A DNA stretch of 64,000 nucleotides, taken from positions 9,123,451-9,187,450 of the forward strand of contig NW_026943824.1 of NCBI RefSeq assembly GCF_035594765.1, given 5' to 3'. Every line of letters starts with the position of its first letter. The first letter of the stretch is position 1. This stretch comes from Anolis carolinensis (Eukaryota). The notes beneath the pieces were generated by a model, which was not told the DNA's origin, made no database searches, and was given only the letters and a program-made list of their open reading frames with translations. This document shows, piece by piece, positions 4,488 through 57,200 of the stretch. The position numbers and the translations under genes are program-made.

Positions 4488-5725
4488 AATGTGTTCTTCC
4501 ACAATGTCTTAAATTCAATGTATTTGTCATGAACCACCGGTCTAAAATGCATAAGGGAAACCGTTTTAGGAGATAAACCATTAGCCTCATCCACATGTTT
4601 GACATTAGTTCCTGCCCTACTTAAAAAGGCATAGTGCAACCAAAATAAAAAAGTCAATCTATAATCCTCGAAATTTATAAGGGGTGGGGTGGGATTTATT
4701 TGATCTACAACTGCCTTGTAGGTAGATGGGTCAGTCTGCTCTTGCAAGCAGTATTTTTGAAGACCAAAGCATTGTCTTAGCTGTGTAGCTATCTCGACAC
4801 TGCTAGATGCAAAAACAGTATTGCTGTACAAGAAGGCTGTTTAGGTTGAAATACAGGTTATACCAGATCTGCCAAGGCATATTTTGTTGAAAATAGCTGG
4901 TCCAGGTAAGAAACTGACAAATGATGTCCTCTGCAGCAACCTTTTGGAACATATGTACCTATCACAGTCATATGTGTTTATTTCAACTTGAAATCCAAGC
5001 CAAATTAAAATGATCATTGCCACTGTAATAATCCCCCACTTTGAAGAGGGATTTTAAAAAATCAAACCAGGATGCCGTGGATATTTTATTTCAAATTCTG
5101 TTTCTGTCTTTCAGTCGTGGTGTTGTTCACTTAATCCTTATCTTTCATTTTAACCTGCCTCACAAAAGTTTTAGGTAAGAATAAAACAGGAAAGTGGATC
5201 ACTTATATTGCCTGATTGCAGAAGGAAGTGCTAAGCAAAAGTATTGAAGTTAAGGCTGTTGTTTTGCTCTTTAAAACCTTGCAATGTCTGTGTTTTTCAT
5301 GCTGTTCCTGTATTATTACAACACTCTCTTCTGGAGTTCTTGAGACATGCTGTGTCTCCCTTTCTCTTGCTTTTGTTTTGAGCCATTAAAAAAACAAGTC
5401 CAGAACACTATGGAGACAAACAACAGTAGATCAAGACAAATAATGACTCACTGGAAGAGTTGGCAAAGGTTCCTTGGAGCTGCTGGACAATGGACTGGTG
5501 CAAATGGAGGCGGTGTGCCTCCCCAACAGAATCTCTCCTCGTCCAGCTCCGGGGGAAGCAAGGCACAGAGCGATAAGGCAGAAAGTCAGACCAAGTCACA
5601 CCCCTCTAGGCATGAATGTTGCTCTTGGCAAAAAACCTTTCAAACCTCAGGATGATGTGGGCTTTTTGCCATTTCTGCCGCTGGTCCTGGCTGCGAAGAA
5701 GAGATGGAACACGGGAAAACTGTTA

Positions 5726-6048
5726 CAGTAGAGTCTCACTTATCCAACATAAATGGGCTGGCAGAATGTTGGATAAGCGAATATGTTGGATAATAAGGAG
5801 GGATTAAGCAAAAGCCTATTAAACATCAAATTAGGTTATGGTTTTACAAATTAAGCACCAAAACATCATGTTATACAACAAATTTGACAGAAAAAGTAGT
5901 TCAATACACAGTAATGCTGTGTAGTAATTACTGTATTTACGAATTTAGCACCAAAATATCACGATGTATTGAAAACATTGACTACAAAAATGCGTTGGAT
6001 AATCCAGAACGTTGGATAAGCGAGTGTTGGATAAGTGAGACTCTACTG
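5726..6048. mobile_element. 323-bp Tc1/mariner (pogo/Tigger-like) MITE family 1
   Basis: TIR CAGTAGAGTCTCACTTATCCAAC, TA target duplication. Confidence 0.9.
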
Positions 6049-6809
6049 TACCACCATCTGAAAAGAAACCAGAAAGAGAACAGAATATAGATTAATGGGG
6101 AGTGAGGACGGAAAGACATGTCAGGGGGAATATGCCAGGAAAGGAAGTTTGAACAGGAGCATATAACACGTATGTTATATGTGTGCATAGAATCAAAAAG
6201 CTGGGTTAAAAAGATAATCTGGGATCGGGTCCTGGAATATACATACGGGCAGCATGGAAGGGGCCTAAAGCTCCCTTTACACCGTCACATAAAATCCAGA
6301 TTATCTGCTTTGAACTGGGTTATATGGCAGTGTGGACTCTGATAATCCAGTTCAAAGCAGATATTGTGGATATTCTGGGTTATATGGCTGTGCGGATAAT
6401 CTGCTTTGGAAAAATGGATCAGGTCTGGGCAAACTTTCGCTTAAGCGGCTGAGGGGGGAAAGGAAGGGGCCTGAGGCTGTTAGGAATGGTGGGAGTTGGA
6501 GTCCAAAACACCTGGAGGGCCCAAATTGGCCCAGGCCTGATCTAGATTATATAGCAGTGCAGACCCAGCCATAGTAACAAATCCACAAAATAAACCTGCA
6601 ATTCACTTCAGGCCTCTCAGAATGAACCAAAAGTTAGAAGCCTGGAACTCTACCTGGGTCACTTTCCCATATTTTCTGACTGAAGAAGCATCGAAAAGCT
6701 CACATGACATCTTTTGTGAACTTTGGTGAAGTCAGTTATGGCTGTTTAAGGGGTTTGTTGCATTAAGCAGCAAGGCCAGGACAGTTACCTCTAAGTTTTT
6801 TTTATCTCT

Positions 6810-28906: not shown

Positions 28907-30868
28907 TTTATTCTTGTACCCCGCCCCATCTCCCCGAAGGGACTCGGGGCGGCTCACATGGGGCCTTGTCCAACATCACAATATAAAATCAAAACAAAAA
29001 CACAAATTTACAACAATAAATCAACAATATCGGTAAAACAATCGAAAAGGACAATCTTACAAGATAAAATGTTAAAACAGGTATATCAAACACAAGTCTG
29101 GGCCAAAAGGTGAATGTGTCAAGTCGGGGGGAGATAGTTACATAATTGACATAGTCAATGAAGTACTATAAATGACAATAGTGACAATAAGAGGGCAGAT
29201 CAGTGGGTCTATTATTACGTAGGCAGGCATCTTAAACCAACAAAAGTCACTCATCAAAGGCTTTCTGGAAAAGCCAGGTTTTCAGATTCTTCCAGAAGGA
29301 GAGGAGGGTGGGGGCCAGCCTAATCTCCCTAGGGAGCAAGTTCCAAAGCTGGGGGGCCACGACAGAGAAGGCCCTCTCTCTCGTCCCCACCAACCACGCC
29401 TGTGAGGGTGGTGGGAGCGAGAGAAGGGCCTCCCCCGACGAGTGAAGAGATCGTGCGGGTTCGTAGGGGGAAATGCGGTCTCTAAGGTAGGCGAGTCCCA
29501 AACCGTTTAGGGCTTTGTAGGTAAGAACCTGCACCTTGAATTGGGCTCGGAAAGTAAGCGGCAGCCAGTGGAGCTCCTTAAACAGAGGCGTTGAACGTGC
29601 CCTGTAATTTGCTCCAGTTAGAAACCTGGCTGCCGTGCGTTGAACTAATTGCAGTTTCCGGACCATCTTCAGAGGCAGCCCCACGTAGAGCGCATTGCAA
29701 TAATCCAGTCTAGAGGTAACTAAGGCATGGACCACCATGGTCAGATCAGACTTCTCGAGGTATGGTCGCAGCTGGTGCACAAGTTTTAGTTGTGCAAAGG
29801 CCCTCCCGGCCACGGCCGACACCTGAGCTTCAAGCGTCAGCCCCGAATCCAGGAGGACCCCCAAGCTACGGACCTGCGCCTTCAGGGGGAGTGCGACCCC
29901 GTCAAGCACAGGTTGCCACCCAATACCCCGATCGAACTTTCGACTGACCTGGAGGACCTCTGTCTTATTAGGATTAAGTCTCAGCTTGTTCGCCCTCATC
30001 CAGGCCAACACAGCGGCCAGACACTGATCCAGTATCCGAGGGGCTTCCTTGGATTTTGGTGGAAAAGAGTAGTAGAGTTGGGTGTCATCCGCGTAGAGAT
30101 GGCACCGAACTCCAAAACCCCGGATGACCTCGCCCAGTGGTTTCATGTAGATATTGAAAAGCATGGGGGACAGAATAGAACCTTGCGGGACCCCACAGGA
30201 CAATGGCCAGGAGTCCGAGCAGGTGTCCCCCAGCTTCACCATCTGGGAACGCTCCTCCAGGAAGGACTGGAGCCACTGCAGAACAGTACCCCCAAGGCCC
30301 ATCCTGGAGAGACGTCCCAGAAGGATACCATGGTCGATGGTATCAAAAGCCGCTGAGATGTCCAAGAGAACCAGCAGGGTCACACTCCCCCTGTCCAGCT
30401 CCCTGCGGAGGTCATCCACCAAAGCGACCAAAGCTGTCTCGGTACTGAAACCAGGCCTGAAGCCAGACTGCGATTGGTCCAGAGAATCCGTATCATCCAA
30501 GAATCCCTGGAGCTGAGAGGCAACCACCCGCTCCAAGACCTTGCCCAAAAATGGAAGGTTGGAGATTGGTCTGTAGTTATGCAAGTTGGTCGAATCTAGG
30601 GATGCCTTCTTTAAGATAGGTCTCACTACCGCTTGTTTTAGATTAGATGGAAATCTACCCTGCTCCAAAGAGGCATTAATTATTCTCACAAACCAATCAA
30701 CCAACCCACCACTGGCCTGTTTTAAAAGCCAAGATGGACAAGGGTCAAGGGCACAGGTGGTCGCCCTCACCGCTCCAAGAATCTTGTCCACATCATCAGG
30801 CTGCACAAGCTGAAACGAATCCCACAAGATCGAACAGACAGAAGCCTCGGTTACCTCACCGAGGCTTC
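28905..30868 (-). mobile_element. 5'-truncated L2-clade LINE with uninterrupted RT ORF (29247-30827)
   Basis: NYRPISNLPFLGKVLE, QSGFR, GVPQGSILSP, YADD, SRLDYCN, LHWLP. 3' UTR stem-loop GAGTCCCTTCGGGGAGATGG and (TTA)n tail. Confidence 0.93.
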
Positions 30869-30942
<74 letters not shown>

Positions 30943-31615
30943 TTTATTATGACACAGCAAACAAGATAGATATGCTGGATTTCATATCACAAAATCACAA
31001 GTCGAACACTTCCCAAGTGTCTAGAACTGTGTGATGTATTTTCGGATGATGTGTGCAGATCCCAGCAGGGTGGCCTTTTGCAGTTGGCAGATCGTAATTT
31101 TGTCAATGTCTATTGTTTCCAAATGCCGGCTGAGATCTTTTGGCACGGCACCCAGTGTGCTGATCACCACCGGGACCACCTGCACTGGTTTCTGCCAGAG
31201 TCTTTGAAGTTCAATCTTGAGGTCCTGATAGTGGCTGAGTTTTTCCTGTTGTTTTTCGTCAATGAGACTGTCACCTGGGATGGCAACATCAATGATCCAA
31301 ACCTTTTTCTTTTCGACAACTGTGATGTCTGGTGTGTTGTGTTCCAGAACTTTGTCAGTCTGGATTCGGAAGTCCCACAGTATCTTTGCCTGCTCATTCT
31401 CCAATACTTTTGCAGGTTTGTGATCCCACCAGTTCTTTGCTGCTGGAAGGTGGTACTTGAGGCATAAGTTCCAATGAATCAGTTGTGCCTCTGTTTGTAG
31501 TCTGTCTGTGCAATTTTCTTACAGCAGCTGAGGATGGTTTCGTCGGTTTCCTTGCACAGTCTGCACTTTGGGTCATCAGCTGATTTTTCAATCTTGGTCT
31601 TAATTGCATTTGTTC

Positions 31616-36963: not shown

Positions 36964-37917
36964 TATAATCTATATATATAAAAGAGTGATGGCATCAGGG
37001 CAGCGGACAAAACAACAAAACTACAGGCCCCCCAACCTCGAAATTTGAGAACACAACCCATCATCCACGCCTCTAGGTTGATGCAACAAAAAGAAAAGAA
37101 AAATAAAGTCCTAATTAGAGAGAGAGGAATAATTGCTTTTATCCAATTGCTGCCAGTTAGAAGGCTAAGCTCCTCCAACTTGGTCTCCTAGCAACCCAAT
37201 AAAAATAATAAAAAACACTAAAAAATAATAAAAAACACTAAAAATTAATACAATAAAATACTATAATAACAGAAAATAACTAAAAATAATACAAGAAAAT
37301 AATAAAATATAATAAATAAAATATAACTTACAATAAAATTAATTTAAAAAATGCAAATAACGTCAAATAAAAATTACACAACAATTTTTAACCAATACCA
37401 CCACCACTTTGCCACAGCAATGTGTGGCCGGGCACAGCTAGTATAATTATATAATTATCATTATATACTGTGGGACTTCCGAATCCAGACTGACAAAGTT
37501 CTGGAACATAACACACCAGACATCACAGTTGTGGAGAAGAAAAAGGTTTGGATCATTGATGTCGCCATCCCAGGTGACAGTCGCATTGACGAAAAACAAC
37601 AGGAAAAACTCAGCCGCTATCAGGACCTCAAGATTGAACTTCAAAGACTCTGGCAGAAACCAGTGCAGGTGGTCCCGGTGGTGATGGGCACACTGGGTAC
37701 CTTGACAAAAGATCTCAGCTGGCATTTGGAAACAATAGGCATTGACAAAATTACGATCTGCCAACTGCAAAAGGCCACCCTGCTGGGATCTGCACGCATC
37801 ATCCGAAAATACATCACACAGTCCTAGACGCTTGGGAAGTGTTCGACTTGTGATTTTGTGAAACGAAATTCAGCATATCTATCTTGTTTGCCGTGACATA
37901 ATAAAATAATAATAATA

Positions 37918-40900: not shown

Positions 40901-43900
40901 ATGGGAAGTGTGGACCTGCTTCTGGCCAACAAGATAGTCAAATTAATTAGGATTATTGTTGTTGTGTGCCTTCAAGTCATTTCAGATTTTGGGCAAGCCT
41001 AAGTCAAAAATTTATTTATTTATTATTTATTTATTTACTACATTTATATCCTGTTCTTCTCACCCCGAAGGGGACTCAGAGCGGCTTACAATTTATATCT
41101 ATATACAATATATTATATTATTAGCACAGAACAATATTAGCATTATATATTACTATATTGAATTATACCACTATATTGTAATATTATTAGTAATATTACA
41201 TGTAATATATAATATATAATTAATATTATATGGTATTATTAGTATTACATTGTATTACATTATAATATTTCTATCAATATTATATGTATATACAACATTA
41301 TATTATTAAAACTGATATAAAAATATTATATTATAAAACTGAGGGCAGGGGCCAGGTAAATGACCTTGGAGGGCCGCATCCGGCCCCCGGGCCTTAGTTT
41401 GGGGACCCCTGCAGTAGCCAATAGGAATGTTGGCTCCTGGCTGGCTCAGCCAATCAGCTGCCAACACATGCCTTTCCAGTCAACTCATTTACATCATGGT
41501 GTCTTTTTTACAAATTCCCACAGGCTTTATATAGACATCCTGTGGGCCACTGTGTAAATAGAATGCTTAGATGAAACTTCCAACTAATCCAGCAACGTTT
41601 TTATATTTTTAAGAGCAAGGTCAGCTCTAAATATCTGGCTACCAAAACCAAAGGACATTTCAGCTGCAAAAGAACTGAATCCTTTTGTGGTCAGGGTGAC
41701 ATACTTCTTTGCATTTGAGAGTGGTGGACTACCACATTTTATAGGGAACAAGGCAGGTTACGGAGCAGATACAGTTCTGCCCTTCCACCACTGCCTCCTG
41801 GCCTTTACTTTCCTTTGGCATTAAAATGGGATTATCATAAGAATGATCCTGAAGAGCATATGCCCTCAAGGAGGAGAACTAGACAATACTCAAGATGGCT
41901 TAAAGTTTCATTTACCATCTAGGTATAATTGTACTCATATGTCTATAGCTATACTCCTGAACCTTTGCGGACCCATCGGACAAAATCCATACCTTGTTAT
42001 GCTGAAACATGACCTAAATTTAAGATCCATTAAATAAATTGAAACATTCTAAGAAAACACCTGTCTTGCTGAGATCTTCCCTGCATCAACAGAAGGAATT
42101 CAGGACTAGCACTACTGTGCTGAATATGAGATGAGACTCTTGTACCTTTAATAGTTAGTAGAAGACACACTATAAAGTTCCGTCAAGTGGAACTACAGCA
42201 TGCCTGTCCTTTAACCCACCAAACTCCACATTTTAGCTGATTCAGCTCCAGCAGGAATGGCAATGTACTGACTGGTAGAAAGCAGGGGAGGAGGGCCGGG
42301 AGGGTATTCAAAACTATTCCTGTATCGACACACAACACCTTCAATCTCTTATTTTTTGAGGAACGGGACACCTTGGTACTGCCCACAGACTAAACGATAT
42401 ATTAGAATGGTCATCTTACATTGAGGATAGTTGTTGATTCTACTTGAGGCAGATTATGAACAAAGACACAGGATCCCAAAACCCACGGGTCAAAAAGAGC
42501 GCCCAGGCAGCTCAACACCCAGCCTGTGTCTGCCGTGCACCACATGATGTCCAAAGGCGAAAAGTCCAGCCAGTATCTGATAAACAGTGGAAAGAAAACC
42601 AAGAGGCACCTTTATTATTAAACAAAGACTCACCCAATAGTTATATCCTTTGGCAACAAGTTTGAAGATTCATACCCAGTGTCCTACAATTAGAATTCAG
42701 TTGCTACATATTGTTATAATTGGTCAGATTATTACATGATGAGACATGTTCAAGGTGATTGCCATAGCTAGTCAGCAGATATAGTTGGATACTGGAATTC
42801 CACTTATGTCCATTACAGGCAGTGATATTCTCCATAAGACTTTTTGATGTGTCTTTAGACTGAATTTATAATAATAATAATAATAATTGTCAGGACCATA
42901 ATTTCTGGGCCTGTACTCTGGCACCAGAAATCAAGGACGCTTACACAAAGAACTGATAAGGCACCTGCGGCTCCCGGCTCTGAAGGGAAACGGCTGATGT
43001 GCGAGCGGGAAGAATTGCGCGGGGGTTTTCTCTAGGCGGGAATGACTTCTTTGAATGTGGGGGGAGTGTATATAAGGGAGTCTTACTGGGCCGACCATCA
43101 ATCTCGGCTTTATGTGTGTCAAAGTGTTCTTCAGTAAAGTTTTCAGTGACAACAGAGCAAGCCTCTTGTGTTCATTTGGAAGCGGCTGGAGTGAGCTGAC
43201 ATCAAAGCCGAGATTGCAGGCACTGTCCCGTGGCAGCGGTGAGGTGTGATGGAGACGGAGGGAGACGAGCTCCTGGGCGCAGGAGGGGGTCCGTCGGGAC
43301 GAGACACTCCCGACGAGCCGGATGCCGAATTCCACCGACTGGCAGCCCTGGCGTCCTCCACGGCTTATGCCCAGCCGAACGGAGTGACCCAAAGGCGAGG
43401 AGGAGCGCAGAGAGACAGCACCGAAGGAGAGGGCGAGCTACACTTCCCATCCCCACAAAAGATGGTGTTCCTGGAGGAGAGGATGACGGCAATGGAGACC
43501 ACCCTGGCAATAATGTCAAGGGCAATGGAACGCCTAGCACCTTTGGCGGAGCTGGGAAAAGGAAGGGAACCTCGGACTGGCTCAATGTGGGACTTGAGCA
43601 TGGGAAGTAGCCAGAGCTTCGCAGATCTCCCAGCACCGAAGGGAAGGGGAATGCGAAGAGAGCTCGGCGCCCGACCCAAGACCTTAGCAAGCCTGGCACG
43701 GGTGGAGGAAAGCGACAACGAGGAGGAAAGGCCTCCAAGGTCCCCAGCTACCTTCCAGCCAGAACTCCTGGTGCCCCTAGCGAACGCCGGGCGTGGCACA
43801 GGGCAACGGGAGGCAACAGCGGGGCCCCCGGGAACTCGAGGGAGCTTGCGACGGGCGGAACGTTGGGAGCAGCCGCCACAAGATATCCAGCAAAGACGAG

Positions 43901-46900
43901 AGGATCTGAGAATGGAGTATGGAGGAGAATCCTCCGAGCTAGACTTTTTCCTCACTACTGTAAAAGGTTACATGGAAGATAATGGCCACACGTTCCGGAC
44001 GGAGTCCAGCAGGGTTCGGGCAATCGGGGCAGTCCTGAGAAGGGGAGCGGCCAGCTGGTATGTACAACTGCATGCCAGACACGACCCATGCCTGGGGTCG
44101 GTAAGGCGCTTCCTAGCAGCACTGGAGGACCGCTTCCGAGACCCGCTTGAGCGAATCCAGGCGAGGGAGAAACTGAAAGCCATCTACCAGGGGCAGAGGT
44201 CAGTTTCCCAATACGCTGAGGAGTTCCAATGCCTAGCCGAGAGAATTCCGGAGTGGTCAGAGGTAACCAAACTGGAAATATTCAAAGAGGGACTACGGCG
44301 AGAGATCCTTGCATGGGCAGCGCATCGGGATGATCCGGAGACGCTGAGAGGCTGGATCCAGTTAGCAGGCCGTGTCGAAACCACATTGGCCCAAGTGAAG
44401 AGGCACCGGGGGGGACAACAGCAGCTTCCGAGGCCGAAGGAGGTAGCAAGGAAGCCGGAGCAACCCCCAACCAGGAGACAGACCGAGGCGAAGGGAACCA
44501 GCGGAGGAGCGAGAAGGGAGTGCTTTGTGTGCGGGCGTGTGGGACACAGAGCCGCGGAGTGCTGGCAGAGGAAAGGAGGAGGGGGCAATCAGCCCAAACA
44601 GCAGGCAGCAACAGGAAAGCGTGCTGAAGAAGAATCGTCAACAAAGGGCCCTTCGGAGGGATTGGTGAGTGACGACCAAAGGATGCTGGTGGTGAAAATC
44701 AGGCTAGAAGGCAGTGGGAAATGGGCCACTTGCAAAGCGTTTATAGACTGTGGGTGCTCCAGGAACATTATTTCACCAGAGCTAGCCAATGGATTAGGGT
44801 GGGAAAGATCCCAACTAGATGTTCCCGTAGCCTTCTCTCAGCTGGACGGTTCGATAGCCTCAGGCTCTATAGCCAAATATAGCCTTGAGAACGTAAGATG
44901 CAGAATAGGGCCTTGGGAAGGAGAGATATCATTTGTAGTGTCCCAGGTGGCAACATACAACGTGATTTTGGGAATACCTTGGCTCGAGCAGGCTAACCCA
45001 CAAATTGATTGGAAGACAAGGAGCCTACACTTCCAGGGAGCAGAGGCAGAGGACCAGGGGAGTAGGATAGAAATAGCGAGTCGAGGGGAGGACGAAGATG
45101 ATAGAATAGCAAAGTTGGCAAGCGAATTGCCTCCGGAATACCGGGACTATGTTGATGTATTTGATGAGAAGGAGGCAGATAAGTTTCCACCAAAAAGAAG
45201 GGTGGAAGTTGAAATTCAATTAATACCTGGGGCAGAGCTCCCAAAAGCAAAGATTTATCCCATGTCGGCTCAGGAGAAGGAGGAGCTAAAAAGATATATC
45301 AACAAGAACTTAGAAAGGGGTTTTATAGAAAGATCAAATTCCCCTTTGGGAGCACCTGTTCTATTCCGGCGGAAAAAGGATAATTCCCTAAGACTATGCA
45401 TTGACTACAGACGTCTGAACGCTATCAGCACCGTGAATAAATACCCTCTGCCCCTTATGAAAGACCTTATTGCATAGTTGTCTGAAGGGAAAATATTTAC
45501 AAAATTAGATCTTGCAGAAGCATATCATAAAATCAGGATAAAGCCAGAGGACAGATGGAAGACTGCGTTTTCATGCGCCTATGGACTATATAATTATTGT
45601 GTTCTCCCATTTGGTTTAAGCGGGGGGGGGGGGGGAGAGGCTTTCATGCAATTGATTAATGAAGTGCTTCATCCACTGCTGTACAGGGGTGTTTATGTAT
45701 TTCTTGATGATATACTTATTTTGGGTCAGACTAAGAGCCAACATGTGAAATTGGTCAGGGAGGTGCTCCAGAGGTTAAGAGAAGCAAAATTGTATGCAAA
45801 ACTGTCTAAATGTGATTTCAACAAGGAACAGATAGATTTCTTGGGATACAGGATTTCCTCTCAAGGAATAGCGATGGACCCAGCTAAAGTGGAGGACGTG
45901 AAGGGGTGGGAAGCACCCAAGACTAGGAAACAGCTACAGTCATTCCTGGGGTTCGCAAACTTTTACTGAGCTTTTATTGAAGACTTCGCACAAATCACAC
46001 TGCCCCTCTGTTAAAGACAAAAGGGAGGGGGGAGACGGCTAAGGTTAAATCCCCAGGGGCCAAACTGAATTGGACGGGGGAGTGCCAGCAAGCCTTTGAA
46101 GCATTAAAAAGGAGGTTCACTGAGGAACCCATTTTGCAGCACCCAAACACATCCAAGCCTTTTGTGGTGCATTGTGACGCATCGGATTGTGCTTATGGGG
46201 CGGTGTTGTTGCAGAAGGACGAGAAAGGGAACCTTAGACCCTGTAGCTATTTATCCAAAAAGTTCAGCGAAGCGGAGAAACGCTGGCCAATTTGGGAAAG
46301 GGAAGCACTTGCAATATTGAAAGCATTAGAGAATTGGAGGCATTTTCTGGAGGGAAGTGGGATCCCCTTTGAAGTATGGACAGATCATAAGAATTTACAG
46401 TATATACGGTCCCCTCGAAAGCTTTTGGCCAAGCAGATAAGGTGGGCACAGTATTTCAGCCGTTTCAACTTCAGACTGAAGTTCTTCCAGGGAAAACATA
46501 ATGTGTTGGCTGATGCCTTATCCCGGATGCCTCAGCACGGTGTAAACACCCGAGAATCTGAGGGAAGCGTCTTCTCAGACGAGCAATGGGGCCTCGCTGC
46601 GTTGACTCGTGCGCAAACAAAGAAGGGAGAAAATCTTGTAGCAGTCACCACAGTAGGGAAGGTATGGGAGGAGGAGCTGAAACAAGCGTACGAGGGAGAT
46701 GGCTGGCTACAATCCCATAAAGAGCAAGGGGAAACGAGTGAAGGATTGTTATTTGTGAATAAAAAGCTGTATATTCCAGAGAAATTGCGGCCAGAGATGC
46801 TGAAAAGGTGCCACGATAGCAAGGGGGCAGGACATATGGGACCAACCAAAACAATAAAGCTTTTGGCAAGGCAGTGTTGGTGGCCGGGGATGAGGAAGGA

Positions 46901-48197
46901 TGTTAAATCGTATATTACTCGATGTGAATTATGTGCCGAATGTAAAACGCCACCAGGGAAACCACAGGGTCTTTTGCAAAGTGTAGTAGAACCCACAAGG
47001 CCTTGGGAGTGCGTGGCTATGGATTTTGTGGGCAAATTGCCTCCCAGCAAAGGCTACAGGTATATATGGACTGTCCTGGACCTGTTCTCTAAACAGGTTC
47101 ATTTTGTGGCTCTACAAAAGCTCCCATCCGCTGAGAAATTGGCAGAATTGTATGTCCGACATGTTTATAGATTGCATGGGTGCCCTGAGAGGGTGATTAG
47201 TGAGATGAAGGTTTTGGGAGAAGTTCCTAAGCTTGTTAGGGGCGGAAAGGAACCTGTCCTCGGCATTTCACCCGATGACTAATGGAGGAGTCGAATGTAC
47301 ACAGCAGACATTGAGTCAATTCCTACGAATATATCCCAATCATAGACAAAACGATTGGTCGGAACTGCTTCCATTTGCAGAGGTAGCTTTTAACGGAGCG
47401 GTGCACTCTGCAACAGGCCGCTCACGGTTCCAGGTAGTATACGGACAGGAGGTAGCACCCTTCCCCAAGCTGCCAGAATGGAAGGGAGAAGGGGGGCCAG
47501 ATGGAGAGGAATGGTCAGAAAACATCAGGGCAGGGTGGAGAGATGTGGTAGCAGCACTAAAAGAAACACAAAAGAGATATAAATTGTTCGCAGACAGGAA
47601 ACGTAGAGAAGGGGAAAAGCTAGCAGAAGGAGACTTAGTTTGGCTAAGTACTAAGAATCTCAGATTAGGATTTCCATCAAAAAAAATTAGCGCCGCGATA
47701 CATAGGGCCATTCAGAATTTCTAAGGCGATCAATGAGGTCACCTATCAGTTAAAATTACCGAAGGATTTAGGGAAAGTGTTTCACTGTAGCCTATTGAAA
47801 AAATACAAAGGTACTTTGGATGAAGGGGAACTGTAGTTGATTTGATGTTTTCTCCACAGGAAGAAGAGGAGGAGGAAATCATGTCAGGACCATAATTTCT
47901 GGGCCTGTACTCTGGCACCAGAAATCAAGGACGCTTACACAAAGAACTGATAAGGCACCTGCGGCTCCCGGCTCTGAAGGGAAACGGCTGATGTGTGAGC
48001 GGGAAGAATTGCGCGGGGGTTTTCTCTAGGCGGGAATGACTTCTTTGAATGTGGGGGGAGTGTATATAAGGGAGTCTTGCTGGGCCGACCATCAATCTCG
48101 GCTTTATGTGTGTCAAAGTGTTCTTCAGTAAAGTTTTCAGTGACAACAGAGCAAGCCTCTTGTGTTCATTTGGAAGCGGCTGGAGTGAGCTGACAAA

Positions 48198-48233
<36 letters not shown>

Positions 48234-49109
48234 CAAGAAAACCGCACTACAAACTAGAGTTGAGAGCTGGCACAACAAAACATTGCATGGAAAGTTCCTT
48301 GACAAAATTGAAGGAAAAGCTGATAAGGAGAAAACCTGGCTATGGCTCACGAATGGGACCCTGAAGAAGGAGACAGAAGGCCTGATCCTTGCAGCCCAGG
48401 AGCAAGCCATCAGAACAAAGGCAATTCAGGCCTAGATCGAAAAATCAGCTGATGACCCAAAATGCAGACTGTGCAAAGAAGCTGACGAAACCATAGATCG
48501 TATCCTCAGCTGCTGTAAGAAAATTGCACAGACAGACTACAAACAGAGGCACAACTTTGTGGCTCAAATGATTCATTGGAACTTATGCCTCAAGTACCAC
48601 CTCCCAGCAGTAAAGAACTGTTGGGATCACAAACCTGCAAAAGTATTGGAAAATGAGCACGCAAAGATACTGTGGGACTTCCGAATCCAGACTGAAAAAG
48701 TTCTGGAATACAACACACCAGACATCACAGTTGTGGAAAAGAAAAAGGTTTGGATCATTTATCTTGCCATCCCAGGTGACAGCCGCATTGATGAAAAACA
48801 ACAGGAAAAACTCAGTCGCTATCAGGACTCTGGCAGAAACCAGTGCAGGTGGTCCTGGTGGTGATTGGCACATTGGGTGCCGTGCCAAAAGATCTTAGAT
48901 GGCATTTGGAAACAATAGGCATTGACAAAATTATGATCTCACAACTGCAAAAGGCCACCCGACTGGGATCTGCGCACATCATCCGAAAATACATCACACA
49001 GTCCTAGACACTTGGGAAGTGTTCGACTTGTGATTTTGTGAAACGAAATTCAGCATATCTGTCTTGTTTGCTGTGTCATAATAATAATAATAATACTAAT
49101 AATATTAAT

Positions 49110-49158
<49 letters not shown>

Positions 49159-51432: not shown

Positions 51433-53203
51433 GGCAGAAAAATAAAACCTTGCAACATTAGTAAATCCAGCCCTTTGGGTTTGTAATCTGCAAGAAAACC
51501 ACAGCAGACAAGTCAATGGTTAGACTTGCAGGAATATCACTGCTGTTACAGGTACTGCAACTAATACAACTAGTAGGGGCTGCGGTGGCGCAAGGGGTTT
51601 AAACCCTTGTGCCAGCTGAACTGCTGACCTGAAGGTTGGTAGTTTGAATCTGTGAGACGGAGTGAGCTCCTGTCCGTCAGCCCCAGCTTCCTATGCAGAA
51701 ACTTGAGGGAAGCAGGATGGTAACATATATGGACATTCCCTGGGCAACATCTTTGTAGACGGCTGATGTTCTCACACCAGAAGAGACTGGTAGTATGTTC
51801 TCAATTCACTTCTGACACAATAAAAAAACTAATTCCAGTTAGGAAACAATCAGGGCCAGCTAGCAGCTCCCAACAAAGGATTTCCCCAGGCAAGAAGCAG
51901 CCAGGCTTTGAAGCTGCCAGGCTATTCAATGCTAATCAAGGCGGCCAATTACAACATTCACACTTGCCTCCAACAGACAAGAGTTCTTTCTCCCACCCTG
52001 GACATTATTCCACAGATATATAAACCCCACTGGACTAGTTTCCAACAAACCTCACAACCTCTGAGAATGCCTGCCATAGATGTAGGTGAAACGTCAGGAG
52101 AGAATGCTTCGGAAATATGGCTGTACCACCCGGAAAACTCACAGCAACTCCATGGTTTATATGTTTTAGGTTAGTAAGGCAGGTAAAGGTTTTTTAAAAC
52201 AATTCTGGAGACCTCATCAGATGGCTTCAGAGAAAATGGTATATTTTTTCTGATTGCACTCTCAGTTGTTATAATGGAATGAGACACCAATGTTCACCTG
52301 CTCATGGTACTGACCTGCAAGATGCGTTAGTTAGGAAGCTTGGCCACTGCTTTCCAGGAACAGCTTCTTCATTGGCTCCGTGGCTTCAGAAATACATGGC
52401 GACGATCCTTTGGAGAAAATTAGACCTTCTGAGAATATCTTCTGATTCTGGTATGTCCTTCAATAGAAAAAAAAATGTGTGTGGTGCAGTTCAAAGTATA
52501 CCCTGGGGCAAGCTACTGAATGCCAGCAAAATCTAATAATTGACATGTTCAGTAGAATGTGAGGGTACCTTGACCTTCAGCATTTGCTGTTTGTTCCTTT
52601 TTGCCCACATTTAGGGAGAAGAATGTATACAGTAAACAGATTGGTTTTCTTTTTAGTAATTTCAGACAATATCCCCATTCCTTCAACTCTAAATACAAAG
52701 AACTTGATGCGTCTGTGAAAAATACATTTTAGGTGGACAGCAAACCACAAAAATACTGTAGATTGAATATCATAGAATCATAGAATTATGTATCTGAATT
52801 TTTTTGGGCCAGAAGTGTTTTGGATTTTTGGCCATTTTTGGCCCAGTCTAAACACCTTCTACACATAGCCTGAAGTTAATTTTGTGCATAATATTTAATA
52901 AGGTTGTATAAGAAACAAGGTTTTAGTGGTGTGCATTTATATGGAATCGCTGTTGTTTTGTTTAGTTTCATTCATTTTGTCTCAGTTTCGTTTTTGTCCC
53001 TGTTTCCGAAAAGGGGGTGCCTATACGAAAATAATGTTCATCTCGCGTCCAAAAAAACCAAATTTTTTTGTGCCATTGGAGGCAATGGAAGGGCTTCCGA
53101 GGCTCATCCCCCCTGCTCAGTTTTTGGGCTGGAGGGGTGAAAATTTCAACACACGGAGGGCATTTCGATCCCTTTTAGCTCACCAACTTTTAAAACATTT
53201 GCT

Positions 53204-54290
53204 CCCAGAGTAACTATTGTTATTAATATTAATATTATTATTAACACCCATTGGTACACACCAGCTGTCATGGGGTAACAGACCTCTCTCAGACTCAGTT
53301 TAGGTTCCCAGAGTAACTCTTGTTATTAATATTAATATTATTATTAATACCCATTGGCACACATCAGCTGTCATGGAGAGCAGACCTCTCTCAGACTCAG
53401 CTTAAGGTTCCCAGAGTAAATATTCTTATTAATATTAATATTATTATTAATACCATTGGTACACATCAGCTGTCATGGGGAAGCAGACCTCTCTCAGACT
53501 CAACTTAGGGTCCCAGAGTAACTATTGTTATTAATATTAATATTATTATTATTAACACCCATTGGTACACATCAGCTGTCATAGGGAAGCAGACCTCTCT
53601 CAGACTCAGCTTTAAAGAGTCCCAGAGTAACTATTGTTATTAATATTAATATTATTATTATTAACACCCATTGGTACACATCAGCTGTCATAGGGAAGCA
53701 GACCTCTCTCAGACTCAGCTTTAAAGAGTCCCAGAGTAACTATTGTTATTAATATTATTATTATTAACACCCATTGGTACACATCAGCTGTCATAGGGAA
53801 GCAGACCTCTCTCAGACTCAGCTTTAAAGAGTCCCAGAGTAACTATTGTTATTAATATTATTATTATTAACACCCATTGGTACACATCAGCTGTCATAGG
53901 GAAGCAGACCTCTCTCAGACTCAGCTTTAAAGAGTCCCAGAGTAACTATTGTTATTAATATTAATATTATTATTATTAACACCCATTGGTACACATCAGC
54001 TGTCATAGGGAAGCAGACCTCTCTCAGACTCAGCTTTAAAGAGTCCCAGAGTAACTATTGTTATTAATATTAATATTATTATTATTAACACCCATTGGTA
54101 CACATCAGCTGTCATAGGGAAGCAGACCTCTCTCAGACTCAGCTTTAAAGAGTCCCAGAGTAACTATTGTTATTAATATTAATATTATTATTATTAACAC
54201 CCATTGGTACACATCAGCTGTCATAGGGAAGCAGACCTCTCTCAGACTCAGCTTTAAAGAGTCCCAGAATAACTATTGTTATTAATATTA
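53204..54290. repeat. Minisatellite, 10 full units of 102-109 bp plus a partial unit
   Basis: Units start at 53204, 53307, 53410, 53512, 53621, 53730, 53833, 53936, 54045, 54154 and 54263. No unique spacers. Confidence 0.95.
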
Positions 54291-57200
54291 CATGGCCCGA
54301 AACAAAAGGAAAACTAAAGTAAGCATGGTGACTGTGCAGCTTTCTCTTTTGTGTCGCCTTTTGTTTTGTTCGAAAATGGCATCGTTCGTTTTGTGCATCC
54401 AGATGGATGATATTAAACGAACAGATGAATGAAACAGATGAAACAAATACTGTGCACATCTCTAGTTTGCATGCATTGAACCATCAAAAAGTAAAAATGT
54501 CTTTTGATAATCATCCAAGAAAGACAAAGTTCATGTGATGTCTATTGAGTCCAAACTAGTTTCTTCCAGTTCCTTCCCCAGTTCCAACCATAGCTGAACT
54601 TTGGTTACATTTTGAAGAATTTCACAACTGGAAGACTTAATCTGTTTTGGTGAGTGGAAGGTAGATATCAGGCAAGCCGCATCGAAAAATGAGTAGGATC
54701 GGGTTGTCTGCACAAAAGGTCTGGGTTTCTTAAATATGCTGGATTGTTACAGAGAGCAATGCGAGCTCAGTCAATAGATGTTAACAGAAGATAAGAAGAA
54801 GATCTTCACAACCTCTGAGGATGCCTGCCACAGATGTGGACAAAACGTCAGGAGAGAAAGCTTCTGAAATATGGCCATACAGCTTGAAAGACTCACATCA
54901 ATCCAATCTAAGAAGAATCTGTTTTTCTCTTTGTAGAGACTGGAATATCAGGTTACTCTTTCTCCTTATGTAGACAAGGACAAAAGTCTGGACTAGGATA
55001 TGGCAAGTCTGTGATTTGAGCCATCTGATGCTGAAGGAGGTTTAATGAGGGATGGCAAGTGCCTTGTGTTTGTTATCTGTGGCAATGCCCCACCAACACA
55101 TCTTCTAGGCAGCTCATCTAGCGTCACTTTGGAGAAGCTGATGGATGACCTCCCACAAGTTAAAGCTGCGTGAATACTCGACCACCCAATAGTGGAATAG
55201 TAGTCATTTGTGGGGAAGGGAGTGAGAATGAGGCTAGGCCCATTGATAGCAGAAGATGGGTCAGAGAAATGAGGCCTGCCATTTGTGATGATAGGATGGC
55301 TTTCAAAGCTATTGTATTCTTGTGATGCTTCTGTGGCTGGAGACATCAATTGAATATTCAACATACGAGTGACAAGTGAAGGACTGGTTTTAATTCAGAT
55401 TTTGATAACATCTACATGGCAGTCAGGTAGAACATGATTCTGGCCAAAGTTACATCTATTTCATATAGCTATAATTTTGTTTCAATTCAATTATGAAGGG
55501 ATTGCTAAAATTCATGCATTTCCTATTTCACCCTAGGAATAAAACATAATTTTCAAATAGGGAGAAAGTGAAATTGATGTATTTTCACCATCTTTACTGG
55601 ATTGTGGTGAGAATGAAAAAAATCTTGAGAATATTCAGGAAAAAAATGGTAAAAAGCATCATTATTAAGTGTTGAGCAACCATGATGAGAAGAATCCTGA
55701 ACCGATGAGAATCGTTGCAATTGTGAACTTACTTTTCATAAAATTCAAAAATTTTGTGCACAGAATAGCCTCTGTTGTAAAAGAAACTGCACTTAGAGCA
55801 CAGAAAATATCATTTCAATGCAGAAACATTATTTTTGTGCAGAAAATGATGTAACTGGAAACTCATTCAGCACAACATGTGAATGTGTGTGATTTGCCTA
55901 GAAAACTGAATTGAATATTGGTCAAGTGTGGATCCAGTGTGGTCAAGTGTGGAATACTAATCAGAAGAAAAACTGGTAATCACTTATGATGCATCATCAT
56001 CATCATCATCATCATCACCATCTATGGTTGCTTTGCAAGTGTAAAATCTTGGTGGTGGGTCTGTAAGTGACTGTAGAGACCTGTTCTGGATCCACATGGT
56101 CTTTTGCGGTGAGGACTAATGCACCACGACGGGAAAGGTAGAAGATAAAAATCTTCATAAGATCTTATGGTTCTCATTAGAGGCATGAATATCCAGAAGT
56201 TTGCAGAGGACTGTGCAACAGTTCTAGAGTACCCTCTAATGGTCTTATTGATAATAGCAGAAAAAACACCTATAGTGGAGTAGCTACTAACACTGCTTCA
56301 TTAACATCAGGATATCCAAATCTGGATATCAAATTATTTGAAGGAGTAATTCCCTATTGAAGAACATGGTTTGGTAGGTAAAAGGTTCAACTGACTTCCG
56401 TTCTGCGGGCTGTGGTTAAATAAAAAGCATTCTCCTAAGCATCAATCCAAAAAGAGTGAATGGAGAGATTTCTAAACTGGCCACCTGGACACATGTAGCG
56501 TGTGATCATTGTTGTCACTGTGTTGTCGAAGGCTTTCATGGCCGGAATCACTGGGATTGTTGTGAGTCTTCATCCTCAACCTCAGAGGATGCCTGCCATA
56601 GATGTGGGTGAAACGTCAGAAAAAAAATGCTTCGAGAACATGGCCATACAGCCCGGAAGACTCACAACAACCCATTGTTGTCATGTTTAAGGAACGACCC
56701 AATAACCTTAAAAGTGAGTTGCTGTGAGTTTTCCGCACTATATGGTCATGTTCCAAACACCTCCAGCTAACACCTCCCCTACGCAGGAAGCAGCCAGGCT
56801 TTGAAGCTGCAAGGCTATTCAGTTTTAATCAAGATGGCCAATTGCAACATTCACACTTGCCTCCAACAGACAAGAGTTCTTTCTCCCACCCTGGACATTA
56901 TTCCACAGATATATAAACCCCACTAGCCTAGTTTCCAACAGATCTCACAACCTTGAGGATGCCTGCCATAGATGTGGGTGAACTTCAGGAGAGAATGCTT
57001 CTGGAACATGGCCAGGCAGCCTCAAAAACTCACAGCAACTTACTCATGGCTTTTACATTTAAATAAGCACGACAAACCTACATCCTAACTAGCTCATGAT
57101 AAAGAGTTTCATTCTTAACTCACCAGCAAAGTATAGATGAAGTATTGGAGAAGGAGTCCGAAAGAGAGAGAAAGAGACTGAAAACAGGGGAGGATTTCTA

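What the first reader, a model, noticed from the sequence alone, without database searches (positions are those of the whole stretch)
43069..43216. tRNA-independent self-priming signal: PBS is the perfect complement of the predicted transcript 5' end
Seen: the sequence after the 5' LTR has no TGG tRNA-type primer site. Instead AAAGCCGAGATTG (43204-43216) is the exact 13-bp reverse complement of CAATCTCGGCTTT (43099-43111) in the LTR. That segment starts about 30 nt downstream of TATATAA (43069) at an Inr-like TCA, where transcription should begin. Known: this geometry is the self-priming mechanism shown for S. pombe Tf1 and proposed for fungal and fish sushi-group elements. Inference: a recently active amniote element primes reverse transcription with its own cleaved 5' end.
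Basis: partly seen in the sequence, partly recalled or inferred. Interest (0 to 1): 0.75.

Follow-up and report, generated by a model that had tools for sequence, protein, structure and literature searches.

The report
Self-priming lizard retrotransposon splices out pol
A broken copy of a lizard jumping gene has, right after its left repeat, 13 bases that exactly pair with a stretch inside that repeat, so it likely starts copying itself with the front end of its own RNA, as is already expected for its group, and database gene models suggest it likely makes its coat protein by splicing out the whole enzyme region.

Summary
Observation confirmed: 43204-43216 is the exact reverse complement of 43099-43111, 2 nt after the 5' LTR and 30 nt below TATATAA; 0 of 20,000 shuffles match it. 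The element (42888-48195) is a green-anole-type Ty3/gypsy that falls in the fungal/vertebrate Tf1/sushi clade. Distant relatives keep the geometry with different letters (5 of 7 with both LTR ends defined). Self-priming is likely (~0.85) but is the published default for this group; start site and cleavage were not mapped. 'Recently active' is only partly right: LTRs are 312/314 identical, but pol is broken. New: this anole lineage lacks the chromodomain, and pol lies between the element's only GTRAGT donor (44665) and an acceptor at the polypurine tract (47859). RefSeq Gag proteins of the same family end exactly as that splice predicts, and the donor position recurs in other anole and snake gene models. 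This resembles Drosophila copia; junction reads were not checked. A 12-nt tRNA-Leu-like site lies 29 nt past the LTR, too far to prime. The scan noted self-priming before on other DNA (copia, BEL, marine gypsy), not on this element.

The parts
42888..43201 (+). 5' LTR, 314 bp, TGTCA...TGACA
   Evidence: Direct repeat of 47882-48195 with 2 differences (43002, 43085)
43069..43075 (+). TATA box (TATATAA)
   Evidence: Sequence; relatives have a TATA-like site 31-37 nt above their primer
43098..43104 (+). Initiator-like TCAATCT; predicted start at 43098-43100
   Evidence: Sequence and spacing; inferred, not mapped. Many related LTR contigs read G at 43098 (18 contigs in each of two runs)
43099..43111 (+). 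Predicted self-primer (12-14 nt depending on start; 3' end U43111)
   Evidence: Perfect complement of 43204-43216
43133..43138 (+). Variant poly(A) signal AGTAAA (only candidate among the hexamers searched in the LTR)
   Evidence: function inferred
43202..43203 (+). 2-nt spacer between LTR end and primer site, predicted to be copied first and trimmed by integrase
   Evidence: offset 2 in most positive relatives; role from general LTR-element knowledge
43204..43216 (+). Primer-binding site complementary to the element's own LTR
43230..43241 (+). 12-nt stretch complementary to the 3' end of human tRNA-Leu(AAG), lacking the last two bases; role unexplained
   Evidence: Window compared by eye with two primer rows in supplement 8 of PMC6049499
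43249..45477 (+). Single frame gag (capsid, CCHC) - protease (DCG) - start of RT, ending at a premature stop
   Evidence: 98% identical to Anolis carolinensis UniRef A0A803SW01
44665..44670 (+). Splice donor GTGAGT at the gag/protease boundary, phase 0 after codon 472
   Evidence: Only GTRAGT in the element; matches the switch point in RefSeq Gag proteins P0161, P0162
45478..47824 (+). Broken remainder of pol: RT (FLDD), RNase H, integrase, GPY/F (SH3_Tf2-1) module, then stop; no chromodomain
47848..47859 (+). Splice acceptor TTTTCTCCACAG directly at the polypurine tract
47858..47878 (+). Polypurine tract (21 purines), 3 nt before the 3' LTR
47860..47895 (+). Predicted second coding exon, [15 protein letters not shown], running through the PPT into the 3' LTR
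   Evidence: Translated on its own it equals the tail of P0161 and P0162
47882..48195 (+). 3' LTR

Best explanation
This is a decayed copy of an anole Ty3/gypsy retrotransposon of the Tf1/sushi group whose RNA is predicted to start at about 43098-43100, folds back in the computed structure so that these first bases pair with the site after the 5' LTR, and would be cut after U43111, likely by the element's own RNase H, to give the primer for minus-strand DNA without a tRNA. Synthesis would begin at C43203, leaving the usual 2-nt overhang. The same RNA is likely spliced from 44665 to 47859 to make a Gag-only message, which would supply excess Gag from a single-frame gag-pol. Shown: sequence, boundaries, complementarity, tree position, splice motifs and their match to database proteins. 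Inferred: start site, cleavage, priming, splicing in vivo. This copy cannot supply its own RT; it would depend on intact relatives.
For: 13-bp perfect duplex, 0 of 20,000 shuffles; offset 2, TATA at -30, no TGG at the LTR end. Tree on RNase H-integrase (57 rows): window in a squamate clade (100/100) nested in a 40-row clade (98/97) with fungal chromoviruses and all 13 metagenome loci placed; plant and non-chromoviral rows fall outside. Relatives at 29-38% identity: 5 of 7 with both LTR ends defined have a 10-12 nt perfect complement at offset 1-2; the other two have 11 nt against the 3' LTR (L002) and 11 nt with one mismatch (L061); none of the 7 has TGG. Close families change both arms together (L032/L081 ATCCTAATCT vs L062/L071 ATCTAATTCT). 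Tf1 mechanism: 11-nt primer cut by RNase H (PMC7175516, passage). RNase H D-E-D residues are present in P0002. Splice.
Against: No start-site or RNA-end data. The duplexes flanking the primer site that Tf1 needs were no better than shuffles (275-831 of 1000 as strong). 39 of 48 metagenome loci and 13 of 17 viral contigs gave no perfect match of 10 nt or more in the blind scan; many probably lack the 5' LTR, and 4 more were recovered with one G-U pair, but L079, L088, L090 and L039 stayed negative, and L063 gave a candidate end followed by TTGG with uncertain boundaries. No squamate relative was available as DNA, so covariation in the lizard clade is untested. A 12-nt tRNA-Leu-like site lies 29 nt past the LTR. 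Splicing rests on gene models, which can be predicted without reads.
Confidence: 0.85

Rival explanations
1. A host tRNA or tRNA fragment primes: tRNA-Leu at the 43230-43241 site, or an internal tRNA fragment at 43204-43216; the hairpin has another role.
For: 43230-43241 is complementary to 12 consecutive bases at the 3' end of human tRNA-Leu(AAG) (window vs supplement rows); my rough post-hoc estimate of chance is about 1e-3. Half-tRNA priming exists in copia lineages (PMC6317226, passage).
Against: The site misses the terminal two bases of CCA and lies 29 nt from the LTR, while the integrated element ends exactly at TGACA, which needs a primer end about 2 nt away. 43204-43216 does not start with TGG, so no mature tRNA 3' end fits. 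Half-tRNA priming is reported only for copia in that paper. Relatives show self-complement, not TGG.
Confidence: 0.05
2. The 13-bp duplex is only a structural or regulatory leader hairpin (packaging, poly(A) occlusion, translation control); the transcript starts elsewhere and priming uses some other RNA.
For: The whole R-U5 folds into one long stem, and pairs 43099-43110 stay at 0.87-1.0 when the RNA is started at 43050. Tf2 uses alternative starts (PMC5341516, passages). Pretzel duplexes not significant.
Against: The pairing begins 30-37 nt below a TATA-like box and ends 1-2 nt from the LTR end in many unrelated families; a generic hairpin has no reason to keep both registers. No other primer site is next to the LTR.
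Confidence: 0.08
3. Chance complementarity or an assembly artefact.
For: The copy is decayed and sits in a microsatellite without a perfect target-site duplication (AATAAT / AATAAG).
Against: 0 of 20,000 shuffles; contigs of public runs X5 and X8 span the LTR-PBS junction with 1 and 0 differences (records 12 and 18); the same geometry occurs in relatives.
Confidence: 0.01

Closest known systems
Tf1/Tf2 of Schizosaccharomyces pombe (self-primed Ty3/gypsy; PMC7175516, PMC10085805, passages read)
   Same: PBS complementary to the predicted 5' end of the RNA, no tRNA site, single gag-pol frame, GPY/F-type integrase tail, same broad clade.
   Different: Primer 12-14 nt predicted rather than 11; CCHC knuckle present; no chromodomain; flanking 'pretzel' duplexes not demonstrable; candidate pol-spanning intron; no experiment here.
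V-clade vertebrate chromoviruses: sushi-ichi, Amn-san, Amn-ni, Amn-ichi of Anolis (PMC2774666, PMC6317226 passages; Piskurek 2009 seen only as a reference title; Butler 2001 only as cited)
   Same: Vertebrate branch of the Fungi/Vertebrates cluster, for which self-priming is stated as common; same host species as Amn-ichi by best protein hits.
   Different: Amn-ichi is described as chromodomain-containing; this family and its anole sisters stop right after the GPY/F module. Another Anolis protein (P0010, 58%) keeps a chromodomain-like tail. No named V-clade sequence was available for the tree.
Drosophila copia spliced Gag RNA (Yoshioka 1990 as described in PMC5580714, passages read); EVD and BARE1
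   Same: Single-frame element making Gag-only mRNA by removing an intron of about 3 kb that covers all of pol (3,195 nt here).
   Different: Those are Ty1/copia; that paper found no conserved splicing in Arabidopsis Ty3/gypsy. Here the acceptor abuts the PPT, which is translated as an acidic Gag tail, and the evidence is gene models rather than RNA.

Membership tests
Ty3/gypsy LTR retrotransposon | Paired TG...CA LTRs, PPT, domain order Gag-PR-RT-RH-IN, no env | tested here: met
   best solved relative Ty3 Gag-Pol
Tf1/sushi (Fungi/Vertebrates cluster) | Pol phylogeny groups with fungal and vertebrate chromoviruses, apart from plant ones | tested here: met
   RNase H-integrase tree, 40-row clade 98/97; no named reference such as Tf1 or sushi-ichi in the tree
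Tf1/sushi (Fungi/Vertebrates cluster) | At least 10 nt starting 0-5 nt after the 5' LTR complementary to the LTR, no tRNA-type TGG (criterion of PMC6317226) | tested here: met
   13 nt at offset 2
Tf1/sushi (Fungi/Vertebrates cluster) | Self-primer lies at the true 5' end of the transcript | not testable with these tools
   Only contigs were available, which cannot show starts; TATA and initiator spacing are consistent
Tf1/sushi (Fungi/Vertebrates cluster) | Three-duplex 'pretzel' around the PBS | tested here: inconclusive
   6-bp candidates on both sides (43116-21:43197-202; 43123-28:43219-24), but no stronger than shuffles
Tf1/sushi (Fungi/Vertebrates cluster) | RNase H-dependent cleavage releases the primer | not testable with these tools
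   Catalytic D-E-D present in P0002; activity needs an experiment
Chromovirus in the strict structural sense / Amn-ichi | Chromodomain at the integrase C-terminus | tested here: not met
   Stop follows the SH3_Tf2-1 module; 7 nearest Anolis proteins and 8 of 8 further long cluster members end at the same place; snake relatives carry PF00385. Chromodomain-less members of the lineage are known (PMC6317226, PMC4131045)
tRNA-primed LTR elements | PBS beginning with TGG within 0-5 nt of the 5' LTR | tested here: not met
   First TGG at 43231
tRNA-primed LTR elements | PBS complementary to an internal tRNA fragment | not testable with these tools
   No lizard tRNA set or genome on hand; no tRNA family hit in 42800-43400
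copia-like Gag expression by a whole-pol intron | GT-AG sites flanking pol, in frame with a short Gag tail | tested here: met
   Donor 44665, acceptor 47859, tail equals P0161/P0162
copia-like Gag expression by a whole-pol intron | Spliced RNA observed | not tested
   The single read-laying run covered 42888-43487 only

The most novel reading that the evidence does not exclude
Squamate Tf1/sushi elements make Gag by splicing out all of pol, convergently with Drosophila copia and not found described for vertebrate Ty3/gypsy in my search. Because the spliced RNA keeps the self-primer, PBS, PPT and both R regions, it is itself a complete self-priming template that needs only RT and integrase in trans, so lizard and snake genomes should hold precise pol-less LTR-gag-LTR copies, and the donor can splice Gag onto host exons, a route to domesticated PEG10-like capsid genes.
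Probability: 0.4. Interest if true: 0.65.

Novelty: new variant of a known kind. Interest (0 to 1): 0.45.

Why it matters
The priming signal alone adds one more member to a group already held to self-prime; it has been demonstrated only in fission yeast as far as the passages I read show, so a young, high-copy vertebrate clade offers a place to test it with CAGE and cDNA-end data. The side result matters more: a single-frame vertebrate gypsy clade with a conserved pol-spanning intron would answer how these elements get excess Gag, would show convergence with copia, and would explain many 'uncharacterized' or 'PEG10/RTL1-like' Gag gene models in lizard and snake annotations as element transcripts rather than host genes.

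Tried and rejected
No genome is held for the window, so copies could not be compared directly; the window has no second copy. No RNA holder listed among public runs; four runs laid were all contigs and cannot show a start, strand or level. The variant table was cut to 40 rows (123 not shown), so changes inside the primer and PBS of lizard relatives could not be read. P0002 found no relative in viral contigs. Alignment A2 had no stretch conserved enough for a scan; A3 was used. Rfam gave three matches far below threshold; ARAGORN found 0 tRNAs. Pretzel duplexes were not above shuffles; of 7 LTR positions that vary in relatives, 6 are unpaired in the predicted inner stem and 1 breaks a G-U pair, which is no covariation evidence. 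A text search for the 13-mer gave 13 papers whose titles are unrelated. Searches for reptile self-priming found no paper on it. Not held: Piskurek 2009, Lin and Levin 1998, Esnault and Levin 2015; these, Butler 2001 and Repbase entries may already describe this family's PBS or splice. One search for spliced Gag RNA in gypsy elements listed 20 of 22 papers, none on vertebrate gypsy by title; one search is thin. I considered that the conserved Val-Ser is a protease cleavage site rather than a donor; gene models leaving exactly before it favour a donor, but both can hold. No earlier scan notes on this sequence or genome.

Full report
1. The observation. The coordinates are right. The 5' LTR runs 42888-43201 and the 3' LTR 47882-48195, 314 bp each, with two differences. 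After the 5' LTR come TC and then AAAGCCGAGATTG (43204-43216), the exact reverse complement of 43099-43111; pairing stops on both sides. The first TGG is at 43231. TATATAA begins 30 nt above the first paired base, and 43098-43104 fits an initiator consensus (recalled) with +1 at A43100. None of 20,000 dinucleotide-shuffled LTRs gave a 13-nt complement at offsets 0-5. The leader folds far better than shuffles (z = -4.5), and the core of the duplex has near-unit probability whether the RNA starts at 43100 or 43050. Contigs of public runs X5 and X8 span the LTR-PBS junction with 1 and 0 differences, so it is not an assembly artefact.

2. What the element is. One frame from 43249 carries capsid, CCHC knuckle, protease and the start of RT; RT, RNase H, integrase and a GPY/F module follow in pieces. 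Pol is broken by stops at 45475-45477 and 45967-45969 and frame changes near 46010, 47200 and 47680, so this copy is not autonomous. An Anolis carolinensis protein is 98% identical; its cluster has 4 members, while sister families at about 70% identity have 160 and 107, several with ORFs of 1,540-1,610 residues. The clade is therefore young; this copy is dead. In a tree of the RNase H-integrase stretch (57 rows: the window, 43 of the 120 listed proteins chosen to span the hits, and 13 loci; L056 dropped for a short match) the window lies in a five-row anole clade (100/100), inside a squamate clade (100/100), inside a 40-row clade (98/97) with fungal chromoviruses, apart from plant and non-chromoviral rows. 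No named reference such as Tf1 or sushi-ichi was in the tree. The integrase stops right after the GPY/F module, as do the nearest anole proteins, while snake relatives keep a chromodomain: a loss in one lineage. That lineage also has DCG in the protease and FLDD in RT.

3. Do relatives keep the geometry? I obtained 78 metagenome loci and 18 viral-collection contigs, 28-43% identical to the query; none is a squamate element by the tree rows tested. Seven metagenome loci had both LTR ends defined. Five of the 7 have a perfect 10-12 nt complement at offset 1-2, reached by 0-9 of 1000 shuffles. L002, whose two LTRs differ, has 11 nt against its 3' LTR; L061 has 11 nt with one mismatch. None of the 7 has TGG. 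A blind scan of 48 of the 78 loci found 10 nt or more in 9, and in 4 of 17 viral contigs, one doubtful; allowing one G-U pair recovered 4 more of one family among 12 loci re-scanned. The rest were negative; many probably lack the 5' LTR, but L079, L088, L090 and L039 had room and showed nothing, and L063 gave a candidate end followed by TTGG with uncertain boundaries. Among positives, primers differ entirely in sequence, mostly start at an A 31-37 nt below a TATA-like box, and close families change both arms together (L032/L081 against L062/L071). The two loci nearest the squamate clade (L001, L002) have primers starting GC. In the lizard, many related LTR contigs read G at 43098, which would pair with C43217 and give 14 bp, so the start may be 43098 in those families.

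4. How it most likely works. By the Tf1 model (11-nt primer cut by RNase H; PMC7175516, passage), the RNA would start at 43098-43100, pair with 43204-43216, be cut after U43111, and prime at C43203. Start, cleavage and priming are inferred. Tf1 needs two further duplexes around the PBS (PMC10085805, passage); here 6-bp candidates exist but are no stronger than shuffles, so that feature is open. A tRNA rival deserves note: 43230-43241 is complementary to 12 bases at the 3' end of human tRNA-Leu(AAG), checked against two primer rows in a supplement of PMC6049499 (one of its files could not be searched). It lacks the terminal two bases and lies 29 nt from the LTR, which does not fit an element ending exactly at TGACA. 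The lizard tRNA set was not available, so internal fragments are untested.

5. An unlooked-for feature. RefSeq Gag proteins of this family (P0161, 98% identical over residues 1-480; P0162) end ...[18 protein letters not shown]. The window explains this exactly: its only GTRAGT lies at 44665, in phase 0 after that leucine, and TTTTCTCCACAG ends at 47859; the frame after it reads [15 protein letters not shown] through the PPT into the 3' LTR. Pol is thus a 3,195-nt GT-AG intron candidate. Among proteins P0123-P0191 with a CCHC motif, 34 of 35 short-tailed ones end in an acidic run plus MS after the same leucine, including two from A. sagrei, and 22 of 25 that continue into pol have LVS there; the 3 exceptions are a salamander, a fungal and an unnamed protein. 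Val-Ser sits 27 or 29 residues before the protease Asp in all 14 squamate-clade proteins with sequence there and in none of 4 others with a detected motif, of 25 examined. Of 38 short snake-type proteins, 23 show the junction motif: 13 continue into the protease region, 9 leave the element exactly before Val-Ser (three with a four-residue tail ending in Trp, one into host exons by its name), and 1 ends there. These are gene models; they may be spliced predictions, read-supported, or genomic pol-less copies, which I could not tell apart. Junction reads were not checked.

6. Comparison with what is known. Self-priming is given as a common feature of the Tf1/sushi group, equal to the Fungi/Vertebrates cluster (PMC10085805), implicated from fungi to vertebrates (PMC4600332, PMC6317226); the V-clade includes Amn-ichi and occurs in amniotes (PMC2774666); full-length chromoviruses are reported in reptiles (PMC3670739). 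For all of these I read passages only. I found no paper on self-priming in a reptile element, but the papers most likely to state it were not held or seen only as citations. The element works like Tf1 and meets the sequence and tree criteria of the group; it fails the chromodomain criterion and so is not Amn-ichi as titled. The whole-pol intron parallels Drosophila copia, and PMC5580714 (passages) found no conserved splicing in Arabidopsis gypsy; my one search found nothing on vertebrate gypsy. Earlier scan notes report self-priming in copia, BEL and a marine gypsy clade and Gag splicing in a fungal gypsy, all on other DNA and unchecked by me.

7. Verdict. The signal is real and probably functional (0.85) but expected for the group; alone it would merit about 0.3. 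The chromodomain-less, single-frame lineage with a conserved pol-spanning intron makes it a new variant of a known kind; overall interest 0.45.

Noticed in passing
window 44665-47859: Candidate intron spanning all of pol; matches RefSeq Gag tails in this family, sister anole families and snake gene models.
   Followed up: partly
window 43230-43241: 12-nt complement of the 3' end of human tRNA-Leu(AAG) in the 5' leader, 29 nt past the LTR; chance, vestige or tRNA-fragment target unknown.
   Followed up: partly
window 43217; loci L001-L092: The base right after the complementary block is C in 14 of 23 positive elements, though the LTR base opposite is not G. Could be a C copied from the cap of the retained primer, marking the 5' end; post hoc, lineages related, one whole family has T or A.
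   Followed up: partly
window 44749-44757 and 45703-45714 (approximate): Protease motif DCG and RT motif FLDD, shared by the chromodomain-less anole families but not by snake relatives.
   Followed up: partly
window 42939-42951: Variants at 42942, 42945 and 42951 in many related LTR contigs make this part of U3 resemble the LTR-end/PBS junction.
   Followed up: no
window 42860-42887 and 48196-48232: Insertion sits between an (AAT)n and an (AAG)n microsatellite; no perfect target-site duplication (AATAAT / AATAAG).
   Followed up: no
window 48230-49140: Stretch that looks like the 3' end of a 5'-truncated non-LTR element with a (TAA)n tail; R4/Dong-like by recall only; part recurs at 37646-37904.
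   Followed up: no
window 29247-30986 (-): 579-codon frame with a reverse transcriptase domain, probably a LINE.
   Followed up: no
window 53200-54400: Tandem array of 103-109 bp units, about 10 copies.
   Followed up: no
window 43314-43485, runs X1, X5, X11: A sister family about 84% identical is present at much higher contig depth than this one.
   Followed up: no
P0218, P0216 (Crotalus tigris gene models): Gag of the snake family appears joined at the conserved donor to a host gene annotated as malonyl-CoA-ACP transacylase.
   Followed up: no
L002:860-1262 and 5596-6058: The two LTRs differ strongly and only the 3' one complements the PBS; probably a chimeric contig or recombinant.
   Followed up: partly
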